Shown here: one piece after another, positions 1-63,451 of the stretch
How positions within the stretch are numbered: position 1 is the first letter of the stretch
How the letters are laid out: each line of letters starts with the position of its first letter
Source of the DNA: Escherichia coli O157:H7
GTDB taxonomy: Bacteria; Pseudomonadota; Gammaproteobacteria; Enterobacterales; Enterobacteriaceae
Length of the DNA: 64,000 nucleotides
Reading direction: 5' to 3' (one strand)
Assembly: GCF_013167455.1 (NCBI RefSeq)
Contig: NZ_CP038328.1
Notes under the pieces: generated by a model
Told to the model about the DNA's origin: nothing
Databases searched by the model: none
Seen by the model: the letters and a program-made list of their open reading frames with translations, nothing else
Made by a program: the position numbers and the translations under genes

Positions 1-1
1 T

Positions 2-214
2 CAATTTACCGCAAACGTAACCGAAGGCCGTAACAGTGGGATGACGAAAAGAGAATATTATCAGCGACTTGATAACATGAACGGTAAGGCCGACGTCACC
101 CAGCAGATGATAACGCTCTATAAGACTTTTGTTGACTACGTATATGAACATCCAAAGCAAGACGCAAAGATTTCAGGGACGTATATTTATACTAACTGTA
201 TGAACAACTTCTAG
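2..214 (+). CDS. Hypothetical protein, C-terminal ~70 codons only (5' end lies outside the window)
   Basis: Stop-free reading frame from the window edge to TAG at 212-214, same strand and 151 bp upstream of the 366..1682 gene; no recognisable family from the fragment. Confidence 0.35.
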   Translation, partial: QFTANVTEGRNSGMTKREYYQRLDNMNGKADVTQQMITLYKTFVDYVYEHPKQDAKISGTYIYTNCMNNF

Positions 215-365
215 AAACGTAGGTGCCTGAACATGATAGAACTCAGCTGCCAGCATAGAGTGGAAAGCGGAGGCTTACCATCGTATATTCATCGCGTTAT
301 CTTTCCGTAACTATAATCTGTCTCAGTTGATCTAGTGCCTTTCAGGGCTGAACTAAGGAATAAAG

Positions 366-1682
366 ATGAATGACGGTGTTATGCTAGATTCTGACGTTAT
401 TGCTGGTCTTGAGTGGTTAGCATCAACTCAAGAGAACAAACAACACTTTTACCAGCGCTTAGCAAAAGCACAGCAATTTTACATAGCTACAACCCAAAAA
501 GCTGCCAATTTCGGGAAACAGTTTGACCCAGAATGGTATGGTTCCGACGTGGTTGCTGGTTATTTCGCACAAGCAAAATCGCTTATCGATAATAGAAGGT
601 CTTACGAAGTTACTAATGCTTCAAATATAATACCATGGGTTAAACAATTAGGAGTGTGTGCTAAATCGCTCGATAGAATTACTGGCGCTAGAGATCGCGC
701 AATCAGAATGCTTAAGAATACAACAGTATTACCAGACACAGCCTTATTAGAGTTGGTTCTTGCTGGAAACTATGCATCAGAAGGTTATGAAGTTGAGTTC
801 ATTCCAGAACAAAAAGGGATAGCAAAAACCCCGGAGTTTCGTTGCCGCCTTGGAGATGGCGATTATTTCTTTGTCGAATGCAAAAGGCTTCAGAAAGGTC
901 CTTACGTAAAGCAGGAAATATTACAGCATCATATACGCTCACATCTTGCCGAACTTCATATCAAATCCAAAAAGATGAACGTATGGACTGATGTCACATA
1001 TTTATGTGAAGTTAAAGACGCGCCTGAAAACTATATCATTAGCCACTTAAAAAACTTTAAAGGTGTATTTTATGAATGGAATGATGATTATGGAAAAGGA
1101 ACGATTAGACCGGCCAACTTAAATCTTATCAGGGAAGATATCACTGAAAACGGCTCATTACTAGTCAACACTAAACTTGCTCGTCTTATCAAAGGCTCCC
1201 CTCTGGAAGATGAAAATTACCAAGTTGTTGCTATGGGACGACCAGATGAGCGCGACTCACGTTTCATAACCAAAGTTAAACTTGCTTCTTTGATAACATG
1301 GCGTTGTATCAATGAAAAATCTTTCGATGCACGTTCGCGACATGTAACAAAAACATTAGCAGAGATAGATAACCAGCTTTTGGATTATGGTCTAGGCGTA
1401 GGGCATATAGCTTTGGATGTAGATATTCAAAAGGATGTTGCCGATAAACGAAGGGAAAAAAACTATGCTGCCATAGTAAATTTTGAGCAAAAATCTAAAA
1501 TAGTCCGCCTGAATGTTCATTATCTCGTGCCACGCATAGATGAGAACTCTGCGTGGATGGTAGATGAAACTGCGGATGACTTTTTTACCCATGATCTGGT
1601 CAAATATGTTATCCCATTGACTAAAATATTCCCCGAGGCTGAGGTATTTGAGAATGACCAACCTGGCTGGCATCAAAATTAA
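366..1682 (+). CDS. Hypothetical 438-aa protein; possible PD-(D/E)xK-like nuclease motif (E142/E144 ... D164/D166 ... E171-x-K173)
   Basis: Long ORF with ATG at 366 preceded by AAGGAA RBS-like sequence; motif GYEVEF...GDGDYFFVECK read directly from the translation; family assignment not possible without HMM search. Confidence 0.6.
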   Translation: MNDGVMLDSDVIAGLEWLASTQENKQHFYQRLAKAQQFYIATTQKAANFGKQFDPEWYGSDVVAGYFAQAKSLIDNRRSYEVTNASNIIPWVKQLGVCAKSLDRITGARDRAIRMLKNTTVLPDTALLELVLAGNYASEGYEVEFIPEQKGIAKTPEFRCRLGDGDYFFVECKRLQKGPYVKQEILQHHIRSHLAELHIKSKKMNVWTDVTYLCEVKDAPENYIISHLKNFKGVFYEWNDDYGKGTIRPANLNLIREDITENGSLLVNTKLARLIKGSPLEDENYQVVAMGRPDERDSRFITKVKLASLITWRCINEKSFDARSRHVTKTLAEIDNQLLDYGLGVGHIALDVDIQKDVADKRREKNYAAIVNFEQKSKIVRLNVHYLVPRIDENSAWMVDETADDFFTHDLVKYVIPLTKIFPEAEVFENDQPGWHQN

Positions 1683-1880
1683 TTTATTTTTGATAGTATG
1701 AACGAGGGTAGCATTTCTATACAAATCAGTGTTCGGCTGATAGCGAGTTAAACAGTTTACTGAAATGTTCTCAGCAATTAGCTGTTGCCAGGACCTCAAA
1801 AATCCGATTCTGGCGGAAAGTGTGCTGTTTTACCAAGTATTGCTCGTATCTGCAAAGTGTTAGAGCATGTTTTAAGTATA

Positions 1881-2450
1881 TCAGTAACCCTTATTCAGTA
1901 ATGCAGCAAGCGTCGCTCTTGAAACACCGTATTCACGCGCCAATGCGCTAACACTAACCCCAGCGGCCCTTTTGTCTAAAATCGCTCCACGAGCTTCCGG
2001 TGCGATTTTAGCAGGCCTGCCCAATTTCCTGCCTTCAGCTTTTGCCCGTAACAGCCCCGCATTAGTCCGTTCAATCAGCAGGTCACGCTCCATCTCCGCA
2101 ACCGCTGCTAGCATCGACAACAGGAGCTTACCGGCAGCAGAGGTGAGATCAGTGGTGCCAAGCTGATGGACAATAACCTTGATGTTTCGGTCAGCCAACG
2201 TCCTGACAGTTTGCAGAACGTCAATTGCATCACGCCCGAGGCGGTCCAGCTTTGCAACTACCAACGTTTCCCCATCGCGGATTTTGCTGAGCATTTCAAA
2301 AAACGCTTTGCGTTGCACCGCAGGAACCTTTCCGCTGACTACATCAGAAAACCAAAAGTCGAACGTCCACCCAGCTTGTTCAAGTTCCATGCGCTGGTTC
2401 TCAGTATCCTGCTGGGATGTCGAAACACGCCCGTAGCCAAAAATAGCCAT
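1881..2450 (-). CDS. Serine recombinase (resolvase/invertase family)
   Basis: N-terminus MAIFGYGRVSTSQQ contains the catalytic-serine motif typical of resolvase/invertase enzymes; C-terminal helix-turn-helix-like region; GGAGA RBS 6 nt upstream of the chosen ATG (ORF track extends 23 codons further upstream). Confidence 0.8.
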   Translation of the reverse strand: MAIFGYGRVSTSQQDTENQRMELEQAGWTFDFWFSDVVSGKVPAVQRKAFFEMLSKIRDGETLVVAKLDRLGRDAIDVLQTVRTLADRNIKVIVHQLGTTDLTSAAGKLLLSMLAAVAEMERDLLIERTNAGLLRAKAEGRKLGRPAKIAPEARGAILDKRAAGVSVSALAREYGVSRATLAALLNKGY

Positions 2451-2642
2451 AGTCATCTCCTCATCCGGCCCCTGCCAGAAAACGGTGATGAAAATAGGAT
2501 GGCCTGCCGGAAAAGCCAAGGCTAATTTTCCAACAGTGTGAAAGCGTGCGGTTGGAGGATGCCGGAAAACGGTCGTTTGTTGGCGCTTAAAACGGGTGAA
2601 GACATGTTAGGCTGAAACCATCACTTCATAAGGACAACCGAA

Positions 2643-3110
2643 ATGATTAAAGACGCGATTTTTTCACCGTGCGGTAAGTATCGCTACTCGTTATCACGAG
2701 TCTGGGACGAATCAAAACCGTATACCCTTTTCATAGGGCTAAACCCTTCATACGCCGATGCCGAGAAGGATGATCGCACCTTGAGCCGCTGCATATCGTT
2801 TGCCAAAAGCTGGGGCTACGGTGGCGTATACATGGCCAACCTGTTCGCATTCGTTCACACCCAGCGACATGAAATGATGAAAGCGTCTGATCCCATTGGC
2901 AAAGATAACGATAGCCACTTGATACGTCTTGTTAGCGGTGCCGGACTGGTTGTCGCCGCATGGGGAAATGAAGGAAGACACCTCAAACGCTCAACGACCG
3001 TCCGACAGCTATTGCCAGAGAGCACAATGTGCTTCGTCTTAAACGCTACAGGTGAGCCGAAGCACCCTTTGTATATGAAAAACGACAGTGTTCTCATACC
3101 TTTAGGTTAA
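2643..3110 (+). CDS. DUF1643-family protein (155 aa), function unknown
   Basis: Translation (FSPCGKYRYSL...FIGLNPSYAD...) resembles DUF1643 proteins; AGGA RBS before ATG; followed by a 9-bp stem hairpin at 3120-3143. Confidence 0.65.
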   Translation: MIKDAIFSPCGKYRYSLSRVWDESKPYTLFIGLNPSYADAEKDDRTLSRCISFAKSWGYGGVYMANLFAFVHTQRHEMMKASDPIGKDNDSHLIRLVSGAGLVVAAWGNEGRHLKRSTTVRQLLPESTMCFVLNATGEPKHPLYMKNDSVLIPLG

Positions 3111-4113
3111 CATCGATAACTGCGTTCAGAATATGAACGCAGCCATATGATATATATGACTTTTCTTTAAAATGATGGTGTGCTAGCTTCTCTCCTGACA
3201 CCTACCTCATGCGGTAAACCGGTCCGGGTAGGTGGAGATCACCGCTGTTTAGCGGAAGACGTCAGGATGGGAACTCTGCGTAACGTTGATTGTGGTAGGT
3301 AGGGCGCGCAAGCGTTTGATGCAGCCAAGCAGAGGGTGAAAGTAGCTATCGGCGGATTCTTAAGTAGCTTCTTTTGCGCATAATGCATCTTTCAAGAAAG
3401 GTCGTCACACCACGAGGAAGACTTGATCTTCATCTGGCAAGGGGAACCGAGCAAACCTACAGGCTATCTTCTCAGATGGCCTTAGGGTTGATATGTCCGG
3501 CTTCCCCCCCGAGGAAGGGTTTACATCTTAAAGAACAAGTTATGTTTTAACATTTTTAACAATTACACTTCTCTGCTGTTTGGTGTCTTATGGCGTTCCC
3601 GTCAAAAGTAAAGCTGCCGTTTTTACCTCACATGCGTAACAACCAAACACGAACCAGAAGCTGCTAACGTTCAACGTGTTCGCGGTGTAAATGCAGCCGG
3701 ATAAGTTGGGAGCGAAAAAGTGGATGTCCTAGGTTTGGAAGCGCCCCTCTTAAGCATTGCATCCGATAATTTCCGTGGCGGTGAGACAGTCCTTATAGAG
3801 GCAATCAGCCTCCAAAGTTAAGCGACGCGGTAAAACTAAAGCTCGCCCAGATTTCTCATTGATTGCTCGAACTCCGCTACGCTTGTTTCAACTGGCTTCA
3901 CCAGTCACTCTATGAGAGCGCCGCGAATTCTGCACCATGATTTCGACTACCTTCTTTAAAACACTCGCCAGAGAGCCTTACAGCGCGTTTGAACCGCATA
4001 TCGCAGCTTCTGCTTACGGATGACTGTCTGATTAGCAGTAGCTTCATGGCCCAGTCCGGTTTACTTTATTGCTATCAACTAGGAGCCGCCCAAGGGCAAC
4101 ACGGAGATAACGC

Positions 4114-4446
4114 TTGAGAACCGTCGAAATACTGCAATACACCTTACGCAAAGGCAGCGGTGCCGCTTTTCACGCCATAATGCAGGAAATCAGTGTTCCC
4201 CTACACCAAAGCCACGGGATCGATGTTGTTTCGTTTGGCAACTCGCTTGATGACCTGGATTGCTACTACTTGATTCGCGCCTTTGACAGCGCTAAAAGCA
4301 TGACTGCGGTTCTCGATGCTTTTTACGCAAGCGCAGACTGGCGCAGCGGCCCACGCGAAGACATCATTGGCAGCATAGAGAACTGCATTAAAACAGTGAT
4401 TAGCCTACCATCAGAAAGCGTGAAAGGGCTGCGGATGCAATCGTAA
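4114..4446 (+). CDS. NIPSNAP-like small protein (110 aa), TTG start
   Basis: ORF bounded by an in-frame TAA at 4108-4110; GGAG 9 nt upstream of TTG; sequence resembles NIPSNAP/Dabb-like small proteins. Confidence 0.45.
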   Translation: MRTVEILQYTLRKGSGAAFHAIMQEISVPLHQSHGIDVVSFGNSLDDLDCYYLIRAFDSAKSMTAVLDAFYASADWRSGPREDIIGSIENCIKTVISLPSESVKGLRMQS

Positions 4447-4567
4447 GTAATCAAGTGTATTAGCTTAGATTTGACCTAAACAGCTTTGTGCCAAAAGTGG
4501 ACTAGGAAAAGCCTAGCGATAAAGAGTTGAGTTTAATAACTACTAACTGAAATTTAATGGGTGATAT

Positions 4568-4945
4568 ATGAATTTAGATGAAGAATTTTACGAATTACAA
4601 AAACTCTTTGCTCAGAAGGATCTACTGACTGAGAAAAGACGCTCTAGTGGCGGCGGATTCATGGAAATTCTCTTGGTGAAGAGACAGAACATGAAGATAA
4701 AAATATATCAAGAAAAAGGACATCAACTTCCCCATATTCATATTGACTATGGAAAACAAGCGCATGCTGCCAGTTATGCCATACAATCAGGAGACCGCAT
4801 AGAGGGAGATTTACCTAAGAAATATGATAGTGATGTTTCGAGTTGGTTGGGGAGAAATCGTGATAAAATTTTAGAAATCTGGAATGCACTACAAGCTGGC
4901 GCACCTTATGAACCACTAATCGCAGAATTGACTGGCGGAGTGTGA
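4568..4945 (+). CDS. DUF4160-family protein with ~30-aa N-terminal extension
   Basis: Core ...KIKIYQEKGHQLPHIHIDYGKQ...GDLPKK...W... matches the DUF4160 signature (HxPHFH...Y.G); start uncertain (internal Met at residue 42 is an alternative). Confidence 0.5.
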   Translation: MNLDEEFYELQKLFAQKDLLTEKRRSSGGGFMEILLVKRQNMKIKIYQEKGHQLPHIHIDYGKQAHAASYAIQSGDRIEGDLPKKYDSDVSSWLGRNRDKILEIWNALQAGAPYEPLIAELTGGV

Positions 4946-5127
4946 CTAACTAAATAATTTTCCCCTAAAAAAATTCGATGTAGGAAAATATATATAAGTA
5001 AGAATCATGAGTGTCCGCTCCTCGCTCAAGGCGGACTGTTAGACTTGATTGTATGCTGTCAGAGAAAACCGTCAGATCAATTCTGTGAACCGCCCCGGGT
5101 TTCCTGGAGAGTGTTTTATCTGTGAAC

Positions 5128-6018
5128 TCAGGCTGCCAGATCATCGTTTCCGATGGAAGCATAATAAGCTTTTTCTGCTTCTGCCGGAGGAGTATGGCCC
5201 AGCCTTCCCAGCAATCGTCGATTGTTATACCAGTCCACCCACGTTAGTGTGGCCAGTTCCACTTCTGCACGGTTTTTCCAGCTCTTACGGTGTATTACCT
5301 CCGCTTTGTAAAGACCATTGATGCTCTCAGCCATCGCGTTGTCATACGAGTCGCCTGTACTCCCTGTTGATGCCAGTAATCCGGCTTCTTTTAGTCGCTC
5401 CGTATAGGCCAGTGACACATACTGAGAGCCTTTATCGCTGTGATGGATGGTGCCAGACGGACGACGGGCCCACAACGCCTGCTCCAGCGCATCCAGCACG
5501 AATGTCGTTTCCATAGACGATGAGACCCGCCACCCCACGATGTATCCGGCAAACACATCAATGATAAACGCCACATAGACGAAGCCCTGCCATGTGCTGA
5601 CGTAAGTAAAATCAGCCACCCACAGCTGGTCAGGTCGTTCTGCCACGAACTGACGGTTTACGCGGTCGCCTGCGGCAACGGCTTTCCGGCTGATGGTCGT
5701 ACGGACCTTTTTACCCCGGAGAACACCGGCAAGTCCCATAACCGCCATGAGACGTGCCACTGTACATCTGGCCACCCTGATTCCTTCCCGTAACAACTGA
5801 CGCCAGACTTTACGCACACCGTACACCTGATGATTTTCATCGTATACGCGCTGTATCTCTCTCTTCAGCCAGTCGTCGTGCTGCGCACGGGCACTGCGTT
5901 TATCCGGATGATGTCGCTGTTGCTGACAATGGTAATACGTTGACGGGGCAATATGCAGTTCGCTGCATACCGGTCCGACCCCGTACTGCTCACGCAGCTT
6001 ATCCAGCAGTGGCATCAT
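5128..6018 (-). CDS. IS3-family transposase OrfB (integrase/DDE catalytic domain)
   Basis: 296-aa ORF with DDE-transposase features (..WVADFTYV.. / ..HSDKGSQY.. / ..DNAMAES..), overlapping OrfA in the -1 frame. Confidence 0.85.
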
Positions 6019-6341
6019 TTTTTCCAGAGGCGGTCGAACTCCGCCTTCGCAAAATAAGCGGAAGCCTGGCGAAGGATATCGTTACTGCGGCGCAGTTCAC
6101 GATTTTCACGTTCCAGCTCTTTCAGACGCTGACGTTCAGCGCTGGTGAGCCCACCATCACCGCCCCCGGTATCCCGCTCATGCTGGCGAACCCAGACACG
6201 CAGAGTCTCCGGCGTACAGCCAATCTTTGGGGCAATGGAACAAATTGCCGCCCACTGTGAGTCATATTCATCCTGACTTTCCAGAACCATACGAATCGCC
6301 CGCTGACGGACTTCGGGGGAAAAACGAGTATTTTTAGTCAT
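6015..6341 (-). CDS. IS3-family transposase OrfA (HTH / leucine-zipper part)
   Basis: 108-aa [22 protein letters not shown]... ending in the A-rich slippery region CTGGAAAAAATGA that overlaps the OrfB start. Confidence 0.85.
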
Positions 6342-6392
6342 CCTGTTTACCTCTTTCTCAGGGAGTTTAGTCTCCAGGATTTCCGGGGCGGT

Positions 6393-8366
6393 TCACTTTC
6401 TTCGCAGCGCATCTCTTACAGCATCCAGCCCATCAGGAATGTTGAATCTCGCTATCTCGGGCAAAGAAAAATCAATCTTTTCGACAACCTCAACCATGTG
6501 AACCGGTTTTAAATCTTTGCTGTATCGCACTTCAGTTTCTGTTTTGCCTCGCACATGCCCAAGTAGCTGCCCACGCAGTTCCGAACTAACACCCTTCTCT
6601 TTAAGCAAAGTTGAAACAGAATGCCGGAAAGAGTGGAAAGATTTGCTTCTGTCTCTTTCAAGTTTTAATCGACCCGCAAGCAATGATTCATTGAACCATG
6701 CGGAAACCGGCCTACCATAGCCTTTGGTTTTATGTGGTTTAAGCTCGGGAAAAAGACGGTCATACCCGGCAGCTTTCAACGCATCCACATACTCGATAAA
6801 ACCGAGTTCAATCAGCGTAGAATGAACCGGAATCTTGCGGCGGGAATTGGCGTTTTTTAGTTTCTTTCCGTTTTCGCTATCGCTTTCAAGGTTCAGGTAA
6901 TAAACGCCGTCATCTGCCAGAACATCGTCCAGCATTAACTGTGCAATCTCGTTAACCCTTGCCCCCGTCATCAAGCCCAACAACGGCGCCCAATAGTGAA
7001 ACGGGCAATATTGATGGAATCGCCCTTGCGCATTACGTTCAACAGTTCCAGCGACAAACCACGGTTGCGAAAAAATTGCCTTAATTTCATGCGGTTCAAA
7101 TATGTCAGTGTGATCCTGCTCTCGCTCACCTTTGTCATCGGGAGGGAAAAAGTTGTCGCATGGCGATTTCAGAAACTTACCATCATCAACAGCCCACTCC
7201 ATTGCACCATAAAGGCCGTTGATATACTTTTTGACAGACTCTTCTGTCATCAGTTTATCGCCACATTCTGCCGCTTTGGCGATTAACTCATCCAGCGTCT
7301 TAACCCCGTGCTTACCTTTCATCAAATTACGGTTAGCAGGAATTGTGCGCAACTTGCTCTCATAAGCCCGGAGGAAATCACGGTCGAAATCTTCCAACTG
7401 AATATCCCCCATCACTTCAATCATCAAATCGAAGTAATAGCGAATATCGCGGAGCGCCGCTTCTGATACCTTGCCCTTACGTCGATGTTTCAAATACTCT
7501 TCACGAAGCCATGACAAGTTTTCATTGTAATGTTTGCGGTGAACATATTCATTAGCGATAACAGGAGCGACAAGAGGCACGGCAGGGTGAATGCTAACTG
7601 CTGGTGGCGTGGTCTTAACCAGCCATGTAAGTCGAAGGCCTTCAGCATGAACTTTGCTAATCAACAGGCTATCAGCAGTTATATCTACGCCGGGTAAATC
7701 GAAGAACCAACCTCCACTTTGGTTATCACCACTAGTTCGAAATGCAGCCTCTCCTTCGGATACTCCAGCGCTCAACAGACAATCTAAAGTATGCCGGGGA
7801 TTGAAGGGGCGGAGATAACCATTTGCGAAGCTCTCGATACCCAGCTCAAACGCGCTATTGAGAATGATGACTTCTTTAGGTTGATCCTTTTCATCATCAG
7901 ACTGTTTTTCTCGTTTTGCACCCGGTTCCCGCTCTACTGCATTAAATTCATCAACATAGAAACCGAACTGACCAGTCGCCAGCCAGAATACCGGGAGGTT
8001 ACGATTAACCACCTCTCGAATCAATTGCGATATAGGCAACTCGATTGATTGAGCAAAGTTAGAAAGCGAGATCATACCCTCACCAGCAAGCAGTGGGGCG
8101 CAGTCACTTAAAGTTCGATAATCCAATTGTTCATACTCTTGTAAGGTCTGATACCAGACCGCCAACAGGAGCGCGGACTTCTGCTTTGCTTCATGAAGAT
8201 CGTGAGTGCCTGTTGAAGTGTGAATCTCACACTGTCCTGCGTATCGACGAAAACGTTGGGGAACGCTAATGCGGACAACATAAATGCCGCTGGTTCGACG
8301 ATAGAGTTTATATCGCTGAGACATCGCCTCGTATACCCTTTTGTAAGAGGGGCTACGCGATTTCAA
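6393..8366 (-). CDS. Tyrosine-type site-specific integrase (657 aa) of the leuX island
   Basis: C-terminal catalytic signature (R...HSFRHS...HVRGKTETEVRY); same strand as and immediately 3' of tRNA-Leu; stop codon coincides with the last 3 bp of the IS element. Confidence 0.85.
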   Translation of the reverse strand: MKSRSPSYKRVYEAMSQRYKLYRRTSGIYVVRISVPQRFRRYAGQCEIHTSTGTHDLHEAKQKSALLLAVWYQTLQEYEQLDYRTLSDCAPLLAGEGMISLSNFAQSIELPISQLIREVVNRNLPVFWLATGQFGFYVDEFNAVEREPGAKREKQSDDEKDQPKEVIILNSAFELGIESFANGYLRPFNPRHTLDCLLSAGVSEGEAAFRTSGDNQSGGWFFDLPGVDITADSLLISKVHAEGLRLTWLVKTTPPAVSIHPAVPLVAPVIANEYVHRKHYNENLSWLREEYLKHRRKGKVSEAALRDIRYYFDLMIEVMGDIQLEDFDRDFLRAYESKLRTIPANRNLMKGKHGVKTLDELIAKAAECGDKLMTEESVKKYINGLYGAMEWAVDDGKFLKSPCDNFFPPDDKGEREQDHTDIFEPHEIKAIFSQPWFVAGTVERNAQGRFHQYCPFHYWAPLLGLMTGARVNEIAQLMLDDVLADDGVYYLNLESDSENGKKLKNANSRRKIPVHSTLIELGFIEYVDALKAAGYDRLFPELKPHKTKGYGRPVSAWFNESLLAGRLKLERDRSKSFHSFRHSVSTLLKEKGVSSELRGQLLGHVRGKTETEVRYSKDLKPVHMVEVVEKIDFSLPEIARFNIPDGLDAVRDALRRK

Positions 8367-8414
8367 GCAAGATTATGAATTAAATTGTTTTAAAACAATA
8401 GTTTAGATGAGTCT

Positions 8415-8499
8415 TGGTGCCGAAGGCCGGACTCGAACCGGCACGTATTTCTACGGTTGATTTTGAATCAACTGCGTCTACCGATTTCGCCACTTCGGC
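8415..8499 (-). tRNA. leuX: tRNA-Leu (anticodon CAA)
   Basis: Reverse complement reads GCCGAAGTGGCGAAATCGGTAGACGCAGTTGATTCAAAATCAACC...GGTTCGAGTCCGGCCTTCGGCACCA: cloverleaf-compatible, CAA anticodon loop, CCA end. Confidence 0.9.
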
Positions 8500-13952: not shown

Positions 13953-15467
<1,515 letters not shown>

Positions 15468-15469
15468 TT

Positions 15470-15795
<326 letters not shown>

Positions 15796-39424: not shown

Positions 39425-39560
<136 letters not shown>

Positions 39561-42699: not shown

Positions 42700-42830
42700 T
42701 GTGAGTATGGTTTGCCGGATGCGGTGCACCTGTAGGCCTGATAAGACGCATCAAGCGTCGCATCAGGCACTATGCTCAAATGCCGGATGCGGCGTGAACG
42801 CCTTATCCGGCCTACGCACACTATCTCAGG
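42700..42830. repeat. REP/BIME elements between yjgA and mpl
   Basis: Repeated GCCGGATGCGG...CCTTATCCGGCCTAC / GCCTGATAAGACGC...GTCGCATCAGGC units. Confidence 0.75.
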
Positions 42831-48964: not shown

Positions 48965-49075
48965 GCTCCCAGTAGGCATGATAAGACGCGGTAAGCGTCG
49001 CATCAGGCTTCAGTGCACCATCGCCGGATGCGGCGCGAGCGCCTTATCCGGCCTACGAATCGGCATCAGGCATAG
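48965..49075. repeat. REP elements between ytfR and ytfQ
   Basis: GCATGATAAGACGCGGTAAGCGTCGCATCAGGC ... GCCGGATGCGGCGCGAGCGCCTTATCCGGCCTAC. Confidence 0.75.
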
Positions 49076-50347: not shown

Positions 50348-50878
50348 ATGAGCTTACTCAACGTCCCTGCGGGTAAAGATCTGCCGGAAGACATCTACGT
50401 TGTTATTGAGATCCCGGCTAACGCAGATCCGATCAAATACGAAATCGACAAAGAGAGCGGCGCACTGTTCGTTGACCGCTTCATGTCCACCGCGATGTTC
50501 TATCCGTGCAACTACGGTTACATCAACCACACCCTGTCTCTGGACGGTGACCCAGTTGACGTACTGGTCCCAACTCCGTACCCGCTGCAGCCGGGTTCTG
50601 TGATCCGTTGCCGTCCGGTTGGCGTTCTGAAAATGACCGACGAAGCCGGTGAAGATGCGAAACTGGTTGCGGTTCCGCACAGCAAGCTGAGCAAAGAATA
50701 CGATCACATTAAAGACGTTAACGATCTGCCTGAACTGCTGAAAGCGCAAATCGCTCACTTCTTCGAGCACTACAAAGACCTCGAAAAAGGCAAGTGGGTG
50801 AAAGTTGAAGGTTGGGAAAACGCAGAAGCCGCTAAAGCTGAAATCGTTGCCTCCTTCGAGCGCGCAAAGAATAAATAA
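50348..50878 (+). CDS. ppa: Inorganic pyrophosphatase
   Basis: 176-aa translation [24 protein letters not shown]... Confidence 0.95.
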
Positions 50879-50893
50879 GTTCTTCTGGCGTAA

Positions 50894-50932
50894 TAACCCT
50901 GAACGCCGGGCTTCGGTTAGTAAGGGTTTTTT
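50894..50932 (+). terminator. Intrinsic terminator after ppa
   Basis: AACCCT...AGGGTT hairpin followed by TTTTTTT. Confidence 0.6.
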
Positions 50933-50957
50933 TATGCCCGCGATAAATAAACACACC

Positions 50958-51308
50958 TTATTCCACCACCGCCTGCAAGCGTAATAACGCCTCTTCCACC
51001 ACCTCATCCGCAGCCAGACCAATACGCTTTGCCAGCCGGGCGCGTAGATCCATCATCCGCACCTGATTAACCAGCACCACGCCGTGCACATCGCCTTCTT
51101 CGCAATGTAAAGGAACGCTAAATCCGGCATAACGGGCAAAATTTCCACCCTGCGTAATGGGGGCCACCAGCGTCATTCCCAGTTGATTAAAGGCTTGAAC
51201 GGAGAGCACAAGCGCAGGTCGACCAGCACCTTGCTGTTCATGGCCGCTTGCTGGATCAAAGCCAACCAGCACAATGTCTCCCCGTTCAAATTCACTTTTC
51301 TTTACCAT
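50958..51308 (-). CDS. chpB: MazF-like endoribonuclease toxin ChpB
   Basis: 116-aa translation MVKKSEFERGDIVLVGFDPASGHEQ... Confidence 0.85.
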   Translation of the reverse strand: MVKKSEFERGDIVLVGFDPASGHEQQGAGRPALVLSVQAFNQLGMTLVAPITQGGNFARYAGFSVPLHCEEGDVHGVVLVNQVRMMDLRARLAKRIGLAADEVVEEALLRLQAVVE

Positions 51309-51553
51309 ATTTCGTCACCCGCAGGGGTGGATTTACCCCAGACATCCTGCTCGCTAAGTTCCGCGGCGTTCATGTCACACTGTGCCAGCAGTTCATCAAG
51401 CGAGTAGCGCCTGGAGATGGGTGTCAGAATCAGTTGGTTGTTGCTCACCTGCACTTCCACGCTCTGCCCCGGCTGTAAGTTAAGTTCTTTCATTACGATA
51501 TTGGGAATGACCATACCTGCACTGTTCCCCCATCTTTTTATGGTAATACGCAT
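51302..51553 (-). CDS. chpS: Antitoxin ChpS (AbrB/MazE-like)
   Basis: Translation MRITIKRWGNSAGMVIPNIVMKEL...; overlaps chpB start; ORF track begins 2 codons upstream. Confidence 0.85.
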   Translation of the reverse strand: MRITIKRWGNSAGMVIPNIVMKELNLQPGQSVEVQVSNNQLILTPISRRYSLDELLAQCDMNAAELSEQDVWGKSTPAGDEIW

Positions 51554-51764
51554 CTGCACCTCCTTAAGTTATACAAAGTATAACTCACGGTGCTACAGGA
51601 AACGTTTTACCCCTGCGCATTTGTGAATGCCAGCAGAGTTTTTTATGCGTTAATAGATATGGAAAGCGGCTCGGAGAGAAAAGCAAAAGGTGAGGGAATT
51701 ACAAAACAGAATGCGAGTCGTCTCGCAAAAAACAACGCCACCCGAAGGTGGCGTATGCATAGGG

Positions 51765-52106
51765 TTACTTATCCCTGTCTAACCAGTCGCCGCTTTCAAT
51801 TAGCTTTAATCCATCGACGGGTCGTTGATAAACGTACATCCATGCACTCCCGTACGGCGTCTGAATCAACTGGCGCGCGTATTCACCGCCCCTGGTGCGC
51901 AAGGCATCAAGTTCGGCCAGCGTGGCGTTGTCAATACGATAAACTTCACCGTGTACCGTTCCGTTCCCCGGAACTGCGCCTGGATAGTGGCCCAGGCTAT
52001 ACAACTGGTAGTTATCGATACTGAAATCGCCCAGTAACTGGGCATTGGTCATCCAGTGACTGTTGCCTTGTTTGTGGCGTAAACTGCCGTAGACAAATAT
52101 TCGCAT
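51765..52106 (-). CDS. ytfP: Gamma-glutamylcyclotransferase-family protein YtfP
   Basis: 113-aa translation MRIFVYGSLRHKQGNSHWM... Confidence 0.8.
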   Translation of the reverse strand: MRIFVYGSLRHKQGNSHWMTNAQLLGDFSIDNYQLYSLGHYPGAVPGNGTVHGEVYRIDNATLAELDALRTRGGEYARQLIQTPYGSAWMYVYQRPVDGLKLIESGDWLDRDK

Positions 52107-52108
52107 TG

Positions 52109-57660
<5,552 letters not shown>

Positions 57661-58507: not shown

Positions 58508-58612
58508 ATGCCGGATGCGGCGTAAACGCCTTGCCAGGCCTACAAAATCGTCCAAATTCAATATATTGCAAGGACTGCGTAGGCCTGATCGGCATAGCGC
58601 ATCAGGCAGTTT
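58508..58612. repeat. REP elements downstream of msrA
   Basis: GCCGGATGCGGCGTAAACGCCTTGCCAGGCCTACA ... GTAGGCCTGATCGGCATAGCGCATCAGGC. Confidence 0.65.
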
Positions 58613-58784
58613 TGCATTTTTCAGCTGTCTGAATTTTAACCCTCTGGCGGCTTTACAGTACCTTACGCTATACTAGCCACTGAAAATGCCGGTTCACTTT
58701 CTTCGAATCGGCTTTCAATGTGTATTTCACACAAATTAATCAACTTCCCCTTCCGAGGATCTGGCCTGAAAGGTCGGATAAGAT

Positions 58785-60144: not shown

Positions 60145-60165
60145 CGGCTCCTGAATCAGGAGCCG
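60145..60165. terminator. Hairpin terminator between convergent ytfL and ytfK
   Basis: CGGCTCCTGA-ATC-AGGAGCCG perfect hairpin. Confidence 0.5.
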
Positions 60166-60170
60166 TCTTA

Positions 60171-60221
60171 TTACTGCATAGCACTTTTTACTGCATAGCA
60201 CTTTTTACTGCATAGCACTTT
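60171..60221. repeat. Three perfect tandem copies of a 17-bp unit (TTACTGCATAGCACTTT)
   Basis: Counted base by base; located immediately 3' of ytfK and of the ytfL terminator hairpin. Confidence 0.85.
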
Positions 60222-63262: not shown

Positions 63263-63451
63263 TTCTCCACCTCGTCTCTGTGAGCGGTGTTAACTTATTG
63301 TTTTACTTATACCCTATCATTAATGAATGCGCCAACTGTGATAGTGTCATCATTTTCAAAGCGTAAAATTGTGGCATTCTTCACTGTTCTATAAGTAAGA
63401 CGTTTATTCTCCCTTTTCTTTCGTATTCCCGATGATAAAAGGATGTCCCTG

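What the first reader, a model, noticed from the sequence alone, without database searches (positions are those of the whole stretch)
50958..51553. chpSB toxin-antitoxin module next to ppa
A MazEF-paralogous type II toxin-antitoxin pair (antitoxin ChpS upstream, overlapping the toxin ChpB) is present and apparently intact. It is a known chromosomal module, noted for completeness.
Basis: established knowledge. Interest (0 to 1): 0.15.

Follow-up and report, generated by a model that had tools for sequence, protein, structure and literature searches.

The report
Intact chpS-chpB toxin-antitoxin operon
This is the ordinary, already well-studied chpS-chpB toxin-antitoxin gene pair of E. coli, complete and undamaged in its usual place beside the pyrophosphatase gene ppa.

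Summary
The observation and the interpretation both hold. On the minus strand, chpS (51302-51553, 83 aa) precedes chpB (50958-51308, 116 aa), with a 7-nt overlap (ATGGTAA). The 761 bp around the pair are 100% identical to many E. coli O157:H7 chromosomes, where the genes are annotated chpS/chpB. Against K-12 MG1655 there is no indel, frameshift or truncation; each protein has one substitution (ChpS A34V, ChpB H89R, K-12 to window).

- **Family scores:** both proteins score far above the NCBIfam ChpS/ChpB equivalog cut-offs and above the Pfam MazE_antitoxin/PemK_toxin cut-offs.
- **Synteny:** the order ytfP, 211 bp, chpS-chpB, 79 bp, ppa (convergent) matches K-12 exactly.
- **One nuance:** ChpB is slightly closer to plasmid PemK/Kid (about 44-45% identity) than to MazF (37-40%).
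- **Likely operator:** a perfect palindrome (GTTATAC-N3-GTATAAC) next to the Shine-Dalgarno sequence shares half-sites with the pemI upstream palindrome.

Two side observations came out of the comparison. The locus is dimorphic in E. coli: 57% of complete genomes carry the intact pair and 43% carry one shared decayed chpB remnant. K-12's H89 is the unusual ChpB allele, and the window carries the consensus R89.

Verdict: already known, low interest.

The parts
51302..51553 (-). chpS (chpBI) antitoxin gene, 83 aa. It has an AbrB/MazE-type N-terminal DNA-binding domain (residues 5-49) and a C-terminal toxin-binding tail.
   Evidence: ORF; Pfam PF04014 E=2.3e-12; NCBIfam ChpS equivalog 195.9 bits against a cut-off of 101; 82/83 identical to K-12 ChpS; annotated chpS in an identical O157:H7 record.
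50958..51308 (-). chpB (chpBK) toxin gene, 116 aa, a PemK/MazF-family sequence-specific endoribonuclease.
   Evidence: ORF; Pfam PF02452 E=7.8e-26 over profile positions 1-108 of 109; NCBIfam ChpB equivalog 228.9 bits against a cut-off of 129; 115/116 identical to K-12 ChpB; R30 and T52 align with MazF R29/T52.
51302..51308 (-). 7-nt overlap ATGGTAA: the chpB start codon overlaps the chpS stop codon, an arrangement typical of translational coupling.
   Evidence: Read directly from the sequence; identical in K-12.
51559..51564 (-). Shine-Dalgarno AGGAGG, 5 nt upstream of the chpS ATG.
   Evidence: Sequence. The motif GGAGGTG-AGA(A)TG is shared with the pemI upstream region.
51568..51584 (.). 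Perfect inverted repeat GTTATAC-N3-GTATAAC, the core of a 45-bp imperfect palindrome (51554-51598). It is the probable ChpS/ChpS-ChpB operator for autorepression (inferred).
   Evidence: the repeat finder I1. It is the only exact match in 64 kb, with 0.11 expected at up to 2 mismatches. Its half-sites are shared with the 18-bp palindrome GTTATATTT/AAATATAAC at the same position upstream of pemI. It is identical in K-12.
51712..51754 (-). Two terminator-like hairpins downstream of ytfP. They probably insulate chpSB from ytfP read-through.
   Evidence: scan_promoters_terminators.
50892..50931 (.). Hairpin in the 79-bp chpB-ppa spacer. The T-run lies on the ppa (+) side, so this is the ppa terminator. 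It may also end the chpSB transcript.
   Evidence: the repeat finder I3; RNA folds of both strands, -21.8 kcal/mol (+) and -17.5 kcal/mol (-).

Best explanation
This is the chromosomal type II toxin-antitoxin operon chpS-chpB (also called chpBI-chpBK) of E. coli, in an O157:H7-type genome, intact and in its canonical site between ytfP and ppa.

Shown here: gene identity, full length, operon architecture, synteny, and conservation of the residues that align with the MazF catalytic Arg/Thr.

Taken from published K-12 work: ChpB is a ribosome-independent endoribonuclease. It cuts single-stranded RNA before or after the A of ACY (Y = U, A or G), leaving a 2',3'-cyclic phosphate. It lowers protein synthesis and arrests growth rather than killing the cell, and it is a weaker toxin than MazF. 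ChpS binds and neutralises it.

Inferred here: ChpS, alone or in complex with ChpB, represses the operon by binding the GTTATAC-N3-GTATAAC palindrome that abuts the ribosome-binding site, as PemI/Kis does at the homologous palindrome of pem/parD. The 7-nt overlap couples translation of the toxin to that of the antitoxin. The physiological role (stress response, addiction-like stabilisation or phage defence) is unsettled in the literature and cannot be decided from sequence.
For: - **DNA identity:** 100% to annotated chpS/chpB in many O157:H7 chromosomes.
- **K-12 comparison:** no indels, with one substitution per protein.
- **Family scores:** above the NCBIfam equivalog and Pfam cut-offs.
- **Solved relatives:** Kid 1m1f E=1.8e-21 and MazF; MazE 1mvf/1ub4 for ChpS.
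- **Conserved residues:** E24, R30, T52 and R91 are invariant across ChpB, PemK and MazF.
- **Spacers:** 211 bp and 79 bp, identical to those tabulated for K-12 (PMC5120126).
- **Operator candidate:** palindrome with half-sites shared with pemI.
- **Biochemistry:** from PMC5408214 section 2.6, PMC8406201 and PMC12151602.
- **Allele frequency:** both exact protein sequences occur on at least 1000 contigs each.
Against: No sigma-70 consensus promoter was found upstream of chpS, even at relaxed thresholds, so the transcription start is undefined here. Nothing about activity, neutralisation or operator binding was tested for this allele. ChpB carries H89R and ChpS carries A34V relative to the K-12 proteins on which all the biochemistry was done. 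ChpB lacks the residues that align with Kid R73 and D75 (it has L79 and N81), so its chemistry presumably follows the MazF pattern rather than the Kid pattern.
Confidence: 0.94

Rival explanations
1. The genes are intact in sequence but the module is silent or on its way to decay. It is poorly transcribed, encodes a weak toxin, and is kept only because losing the antitoxin first would be harmful.
For: No consensus promoter was found. ChpBK is reported as a weak toxin with an acidic pI; I computed pI 5.58 for this allele against 8.49 for MazF. 43% of complete E. coli genomes carry only a decayed remnant at this site, so the module is dispensable.
Against: Both ORFs are full length, and this ChpB sequence equals the consensus of 12 sampled variants. 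The strong SD, the overlap and the palindrome are perfectly conserved between O157 and K-12. The K-12 alleles are functional when expressed.
Confidence: 0.05
2. It is a plasmid-derived pemIK/kis-kid module that integrated into the chromosome, not chpSB proper.
For: Kid/PemK is the best solved and best plasmid relative of ChpB. The upstream palindrome and SD also resemble those of pemI.
Against: Identity to PemK is only 44-45% and to PemI only 36%, against 99% to K-12 ChpB/ChpS. The synteny is canonical for the chromosome. GC content is 52.5%, close to its neighbours at 51-55%. The records labelled plasmid with at least 99% matches carry chromosomal tamAB-ytfP-ppa-ytfQRT-fbp context.
Confidence: 0.01

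Closest known systems
E. coli K-12 ChpS/ChpB (ChpBI/ChpBK; b4224/b4225)
   Same: Same genes, same lengths (83 and 116 aa), same 7-nt overlap, same SD and palindrome, same 211-bp and 79-bp spacers and the same neighbours.
   Different: ChpB has R89 instead of H89 and ChpS has V34 instead of A34, plus a few synonymous changes. R89 is the consensus of sampled Escherichia variants, so K-12's H89 is the outlier.
PemI/PemK (Kis/Kid) of plasmids R100/R1
   Same: Same Pfam families and the closest solved structure (1m1f, E=1.8e-21). Same antitoxin-then-toxin order. Homologous upstream palindrome half-sites (GTTATA...TATAAC) and the same SD.
   Different: Only 44-45% (toxin) and 36% (antitoxin) identity. 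PemK is plasmid-borne and strongly basic (pI 10.6 against 5.6). Kid residues R73 and D75 align with L79 and N81 in ChpB. The published cleavage specificity differs: UAH/UUACU for Kid against ACY for ChpBK.
E. coli MazE/MazF (ChpAI/ChpAK)
   Same: Paralogous type II module with the same domain families. The residues aligning with MazF E24, R29, T52 and R86 are conserved. The recognition core (ACA) is related.
   Different: 37-40% (toxin) and 33-35% (antitoxin) identity. The mazEF operator uses different palindromes (ATGTAGAT/ATCTACAT). The literature describes MazF as much more toxic.

Membership tests
ChpB/ChpS (NCBIfam equivalogs NF007320 / NF008463) | Whole-protein score above the curated equivalog cut-off, with end-to-end profile coverage | tested here: met
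   ChpB scores 228.9 bits against 129, covering 1-116 of 116. ChpS scores 195.9 bits against 101, covering 1-83 of 83.
ChpB/ChpS (NCBIfam equivalogs NF007320 / NF008463) | Colinear with K-12 chpS/chpB, with no frameshift or truncation | tested here: met
   115/116 and 82/83 identical with 0 gaps. The nucleotide alignment has no internal gaps.
ChpB/ChpS (NCBIfam equivalogs NF007320 / NF008463) | Canonical chromosomal position ytfP-chpS-chpB-ppa | tested here: met
   Same gene order and the same 211-bp and 79-bp spacers as K-12.
ChpB/ChpS (NCBIfam equivalogs NF007320 / NF008463) | ACY-specific endoribonuclease activity of the toxin, neutralised by the antitoxin | not testable with these tools
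   Known for the K-12 proteins (PMC5408214, PMC8406201). Not measured for the R89/V34 alleles.
PemK/MazF toxin superfamily (PF02452) | Domain match above the gathering score | tested here: met
   90.9 bits against 23.1, covering profile positions 1-108 of 109.
PemK/MazF toxin superfamily (PF02452) | Conserved residues aligning with the MazF catalytic Arg29/Thr52 (their catalytic roles are from my knowledge of the MazF literature) | tested here: met
   R30 and T52 are invariant in the ChpB/PemK/MazF alignment.
PemK/MazF toxin superfamily (PF02452) | SH3-like barrel fold forming a dimer | not tested
   No structure was predicted. The only support is sequence homology to solved Kid (1m1f) and MazF chains.
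MazE/AbrB-type antitoxins (PF04014) | N-terminal swapped-hairpin DNA-binding domain match above the gathering score | tested here: met
   47.1 bits against 24.7, residues 5-49. Homology to MazE 1mvf/1ub4 extends to the C-terminal Trp.
Type II toxin-antitoxin operon | Small antitoxin gene upstream of and overlapping a small toxin gene, with a palindromic operator at the promoter or RBS | tested here: met
   7-nt overlap and a perfect 7+3+7 palindrome 4 nt upstream of the SD. Operator function is inferred from its similarity to the pem palindrome.

The most novel reading that the evidence does not exclude
The ppa-ytfP spacer carries an old two-allele polymorphism that crosses phylogroups and may be maintained by selection rather than being neutral decay. 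57% of complete E. coli genomes have intact chpSB. 43% have one and the same deletion remnant, with identical junctions in ATCC 8739, DA33135 and ATCC 25922. The remnant is only about 72% identical to live chpB, and the adjacent intergenic DNA is 81-88% identical, even though YtfP is identical in protein sequence. Separately, the K-12 ChpB used in all the biochemistry carries the atypical H89. The consensus R89 allele found here might therefore be a stronger RNase than the reputedly weak ChpBK.
Probability: 0.15. Interest if true: 0.35.

Novelty: already known. Interest (0 to 1): 0.07.

Why it matters
It matters little beyond correct annotation. chpSB is one of the first chromosomal toxin-antitoxin modules described and has been characterised biochemically in K-12. 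Confirming that it is intact in this O157:H7-type window adds no new biology. Two points have modest value. The lab-standard K-12 ChpB (H89) is not the species consensus (R89). The locus is cleanly dimorphic (intact pair or one shared remnant), which makes it a convenient natural system for asking why chromosomal TA modules persist or decay.

Tried and rejected
- **Promoter search:** the sigma-70 consensus scan and my relaxed scan found no promoter upstream of chpS, so the transcription start is unresolved.
- **RNA families:** the Rfam search of 50800-51800 at E<=1 found nothing, so no known RNA element sits in the locus.
- **Empty-site alignment:** the global MAFFT alignment of the 'empty' ATCC 8739 site misplaced the chpB remnant. 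A local blastn with short words resolved it.
- **Plasmid-borne chpSB:** the plasmid records with at least 99% ChpB matches carry chromosomal context (tamAB...fbp). I rejected them as evidence that the module is mobile.
- **Original paper:** the Masuda et al. 1993 chpA/chpB paper (PMC206809) is not held, so I used secondary sources.
- **Not run:** I judged structure prediction, fold search and the large homology scans unnecessary for a 99-100% match to characterised genes.

Full report
**Observation**

The ORF list and the raw sequence show two overlapping minus-strand ORFs at exactly the reported coordinates. One is a 116-aa ORF at 50958..51308. The other is an 83-aa ORF whose ATG is at 51551-51553 and whose stop is at 51302-51304. 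The mechanical ORF caller extends the upstream ORF to a GTG at 51559, but that codon lies inside the Shine-Dalgarno AGGAGG (51559-51564, 5 nt before the ATG). RefSeq and K-12 both annotate the ATG. The two genes overlap by 7 nt (ATGGTAA, 51302-51308).

**Identity**

- A 761-bp query spanning the pair (50880-51640) is 100% identical to many E. coli O157:H7 chromosomes, where the genes are annotated 'type II toxin-antitoxin system antitoxin ChpS' and 'endoribonuclease toxin ChpB'.
- The window as a whole is collinear with O157:H7 strain PV15-279 from 6396 to 64000 at 99.94%.
Over 901 nt there is 99% identity and no internal gap. ChpB is 115/116 identical (H89R, K-12 to window) and ChpS is 82/83 identical (A34V). 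There is no frameshift and no truncation.
- NCBIfam equivalog models give ChpB 228.9 bits (cut-off 129) and ChpS 195.9 bits (cut-off 101), both end to end.
- Pfam gives PemK_toxin (E=7.8e-26) and MazE_antitoxin (E=2.3e-12).

**Context**

The gene order is ytfQ(-), ppa(+, 50348-50878), chpB(-), chpS(-), ytfP(-, 51765-52106), tamB(-, 52109-55888). The spacers are 79 bp (ppa-chpB) and 211 bp (chpS-ytfP), the same values tabulated for K-12 in PMC5120126. Two terminator-like hairpins follow ytfP (51712-51754). A hairpin with a T-run on the ppa side lies in the 79-bp spacer. GC content of the pair (52.5%) matches its neighbours. Rfam finds no RNA family in 50800-51800.

**Family relations**

'MazEF-paralogous' is right. 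ChpB-MazF identity is 40% over 103 aa by BLASTP (37% in the MAFFT alignment), and ChpS-MazE is 33-35%. The closest solved and plasmid relative is Kid/PemK:
- 1m1f at E=1.8e-21, against about 6e-10 for E. coli MazF.
- 43.9% identity by tblastn to pemK on thousands of IncF-type plasmids.
- 45% identity in the MAFFT alignment.

In the four-way alignment, E24, R30, T52 and R91 are invariant. R30 and T52 align with MazF R29 and T52, which I know from the MazF literature as the catalytic pair. Kid R73 and D75 align with L79 and N81 in ChpB, so ChpB follows the MazF pattern rather than the Kid pattern.

**Mechanism**

Published K-12 work describes ChpBK as follows (PMC5408214 section 2.6; PMC8406201; PMC12151602):
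- It is a ribosome-independent endoribonuclease that cuts before or after the A of ACY (Y = U, A or G) and leaves a 2',3'-cyclic phosphate.
- It reduces protein synthesis only partly.
- It arrests growth rather than killing.
- It is neutralised by ChpBI (ChpS).

I computed an acidic pI for this allele (5.58, against 8.49 for MazF and 10.58 for PemK). This is consistent with the published explanation that the weak activity reflects low RNA affinity.

I inferred the regulation from the sequence. A perfect inverted repeat GTTATAC-N3-GTATAAC (51568-51584) is the core of a 45-bp imperfect palindrome (51554-51598) and lies 4 nt upstream of the SD. It is the only exact occurrence in the 64-kb window. 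The pemI upstream region has an 18-bp perfect palindrome GTTATATTT/AAATATAAC at the equivalent distance from its start codon, with the same outer half-sites and the same SD (GGAGGTG). mazEF uses unrelated palindromes. I therefore take this element to be the ChpS/ChpS-ChpB operator. That is an inference, not a test. No sigma-70 consensus promoter was detected, even with relaxed criteria, so the transcription start remains undefined.

**The two substitutions**

Both exact protein variants, window and K-12, are abundant, each seen on at least 1000 contigs. Among 12 distinct ChpB variants in the 90% cluster, 11 have R89, including one from 'unclassified Escherichia'. The window sequence equals the consensus, and K-12's H89 is the outlier. 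MazF has R and PemK has K at this column. ChpS V34 is likewise hydrophobic, as in MazE (I) and PemI (M). Neither change suggests loss of function.

**Population context (side finding)**

Of 5,426 complete E. coli genomes, 3,097 carry at least 80% of the 761-bp query. A further 2,321 carry at least 80% of the 379-bp ppa-ytfP spacer of ATCC 8739, which lacks the module. Together these account for essentially all genomes.

The 'empty' allele is not empty. Local alignment shows about 127 nt corresponding to chpB codons 7-48, at about 72% identity and with a frameshift, joined to the last few nucleotides of chpB. All of chpS, the palindrome and SD, and the first six chpB codons are absent. ATCC 8739, DA33135 and ATCC 25922 share the same junctions, which implies one old decay event. 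The adjacent upstream intergenic DNA is only 81-88% identical between the two alleles, although YtfP is the same RefSeq protein in both.

In ATCC 25922, esiB lies between the remnant and ytfP. One strain (2000-3039) combines intact chpSB with the remnant-type upstream haplotype, which indicates recombination. That chpB/chpS is accessory in E. coli is already known from pan-genome work (PMC6096937). Records labelled as plasmids that hold a chpSB at least 99% identical carry chromosomal neighbours, so they are not evidence of mobility.

**Verdict**

This is a known module in its known place, intact, carrying the species-consensus alleles. Novelty: already known. Interest: low.

Noticed in passing
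window 50879-51764 (ppa-ytfP spacer); L003 2500-2878, L009, L010, L011: The locus is dimorphic across E. coli. 3,097 of 5,426 complete genomes have intact chpSB and 2,321 have a 379-bp allele holding a decayed chpB remnant (about 127 nt, about 72% identity, frameshifted). In the remnant allele, chpS and the operator are deleted. The junctions are identical in ATCC 8739, DA33135 and ATCC 25922. One chpSB+ strain (2000-3039) carries the remnant-type upstream haplotype.
   Followed up: yes
window 51042-51044 (ChpB codon 89): ChpB R89 in the window is the consensus of sampled Escherichia variants (11 of 12) and matches the basic residue in MazF (R84) and PemK (K83). The K-12 reference protein used for biochemistry has H89.
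   Followed up: partly
L009 (E. coli ATCC 25922) 714-968: In this strain esiB (secretory IgA-binding protein) is inserted between the chpB remnant and ytfP, so the same spacer is also an insertion point for other accessory DNA.
   Followed up: no
window ~60165-60221: The 17-bp tandem repeat TTACTGCATAGCACTTT is present in 3 copies here and 2 copies in O157:H7 PV15-279. By coordinate mapping it lies in or next to the ytfK gene region. This is the only indel between the two sequences over 57.6 kb.
   Followed up: partly
window 1-8499: tRNA-Leu (8418-8499, minus strand) is followed by an integrase-bearing island. The island contains an IS3-family IS1203 copy (ALIL frameshift pseudoknot at 5944-6060). 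The IS segment (5084-6395) is inverted or repositioned relative to strain PV15-279.
   Followed up: partly
window 15542-15713, 39436-39506, 42735-42812, 48975-49053: There are five naRNA4/REP325-type repeat copies, two of them in tandem in the holC-pepA spacer. Other Rfam matches are the Mg2+ riboswitch of the mgtA leader (32411-32526) and the sRNA families Ysr276 (14514-14708), STnc450 (58666-58723), ES036 (58544-58586) and ES239 (63329-63451).
   Followed up: no
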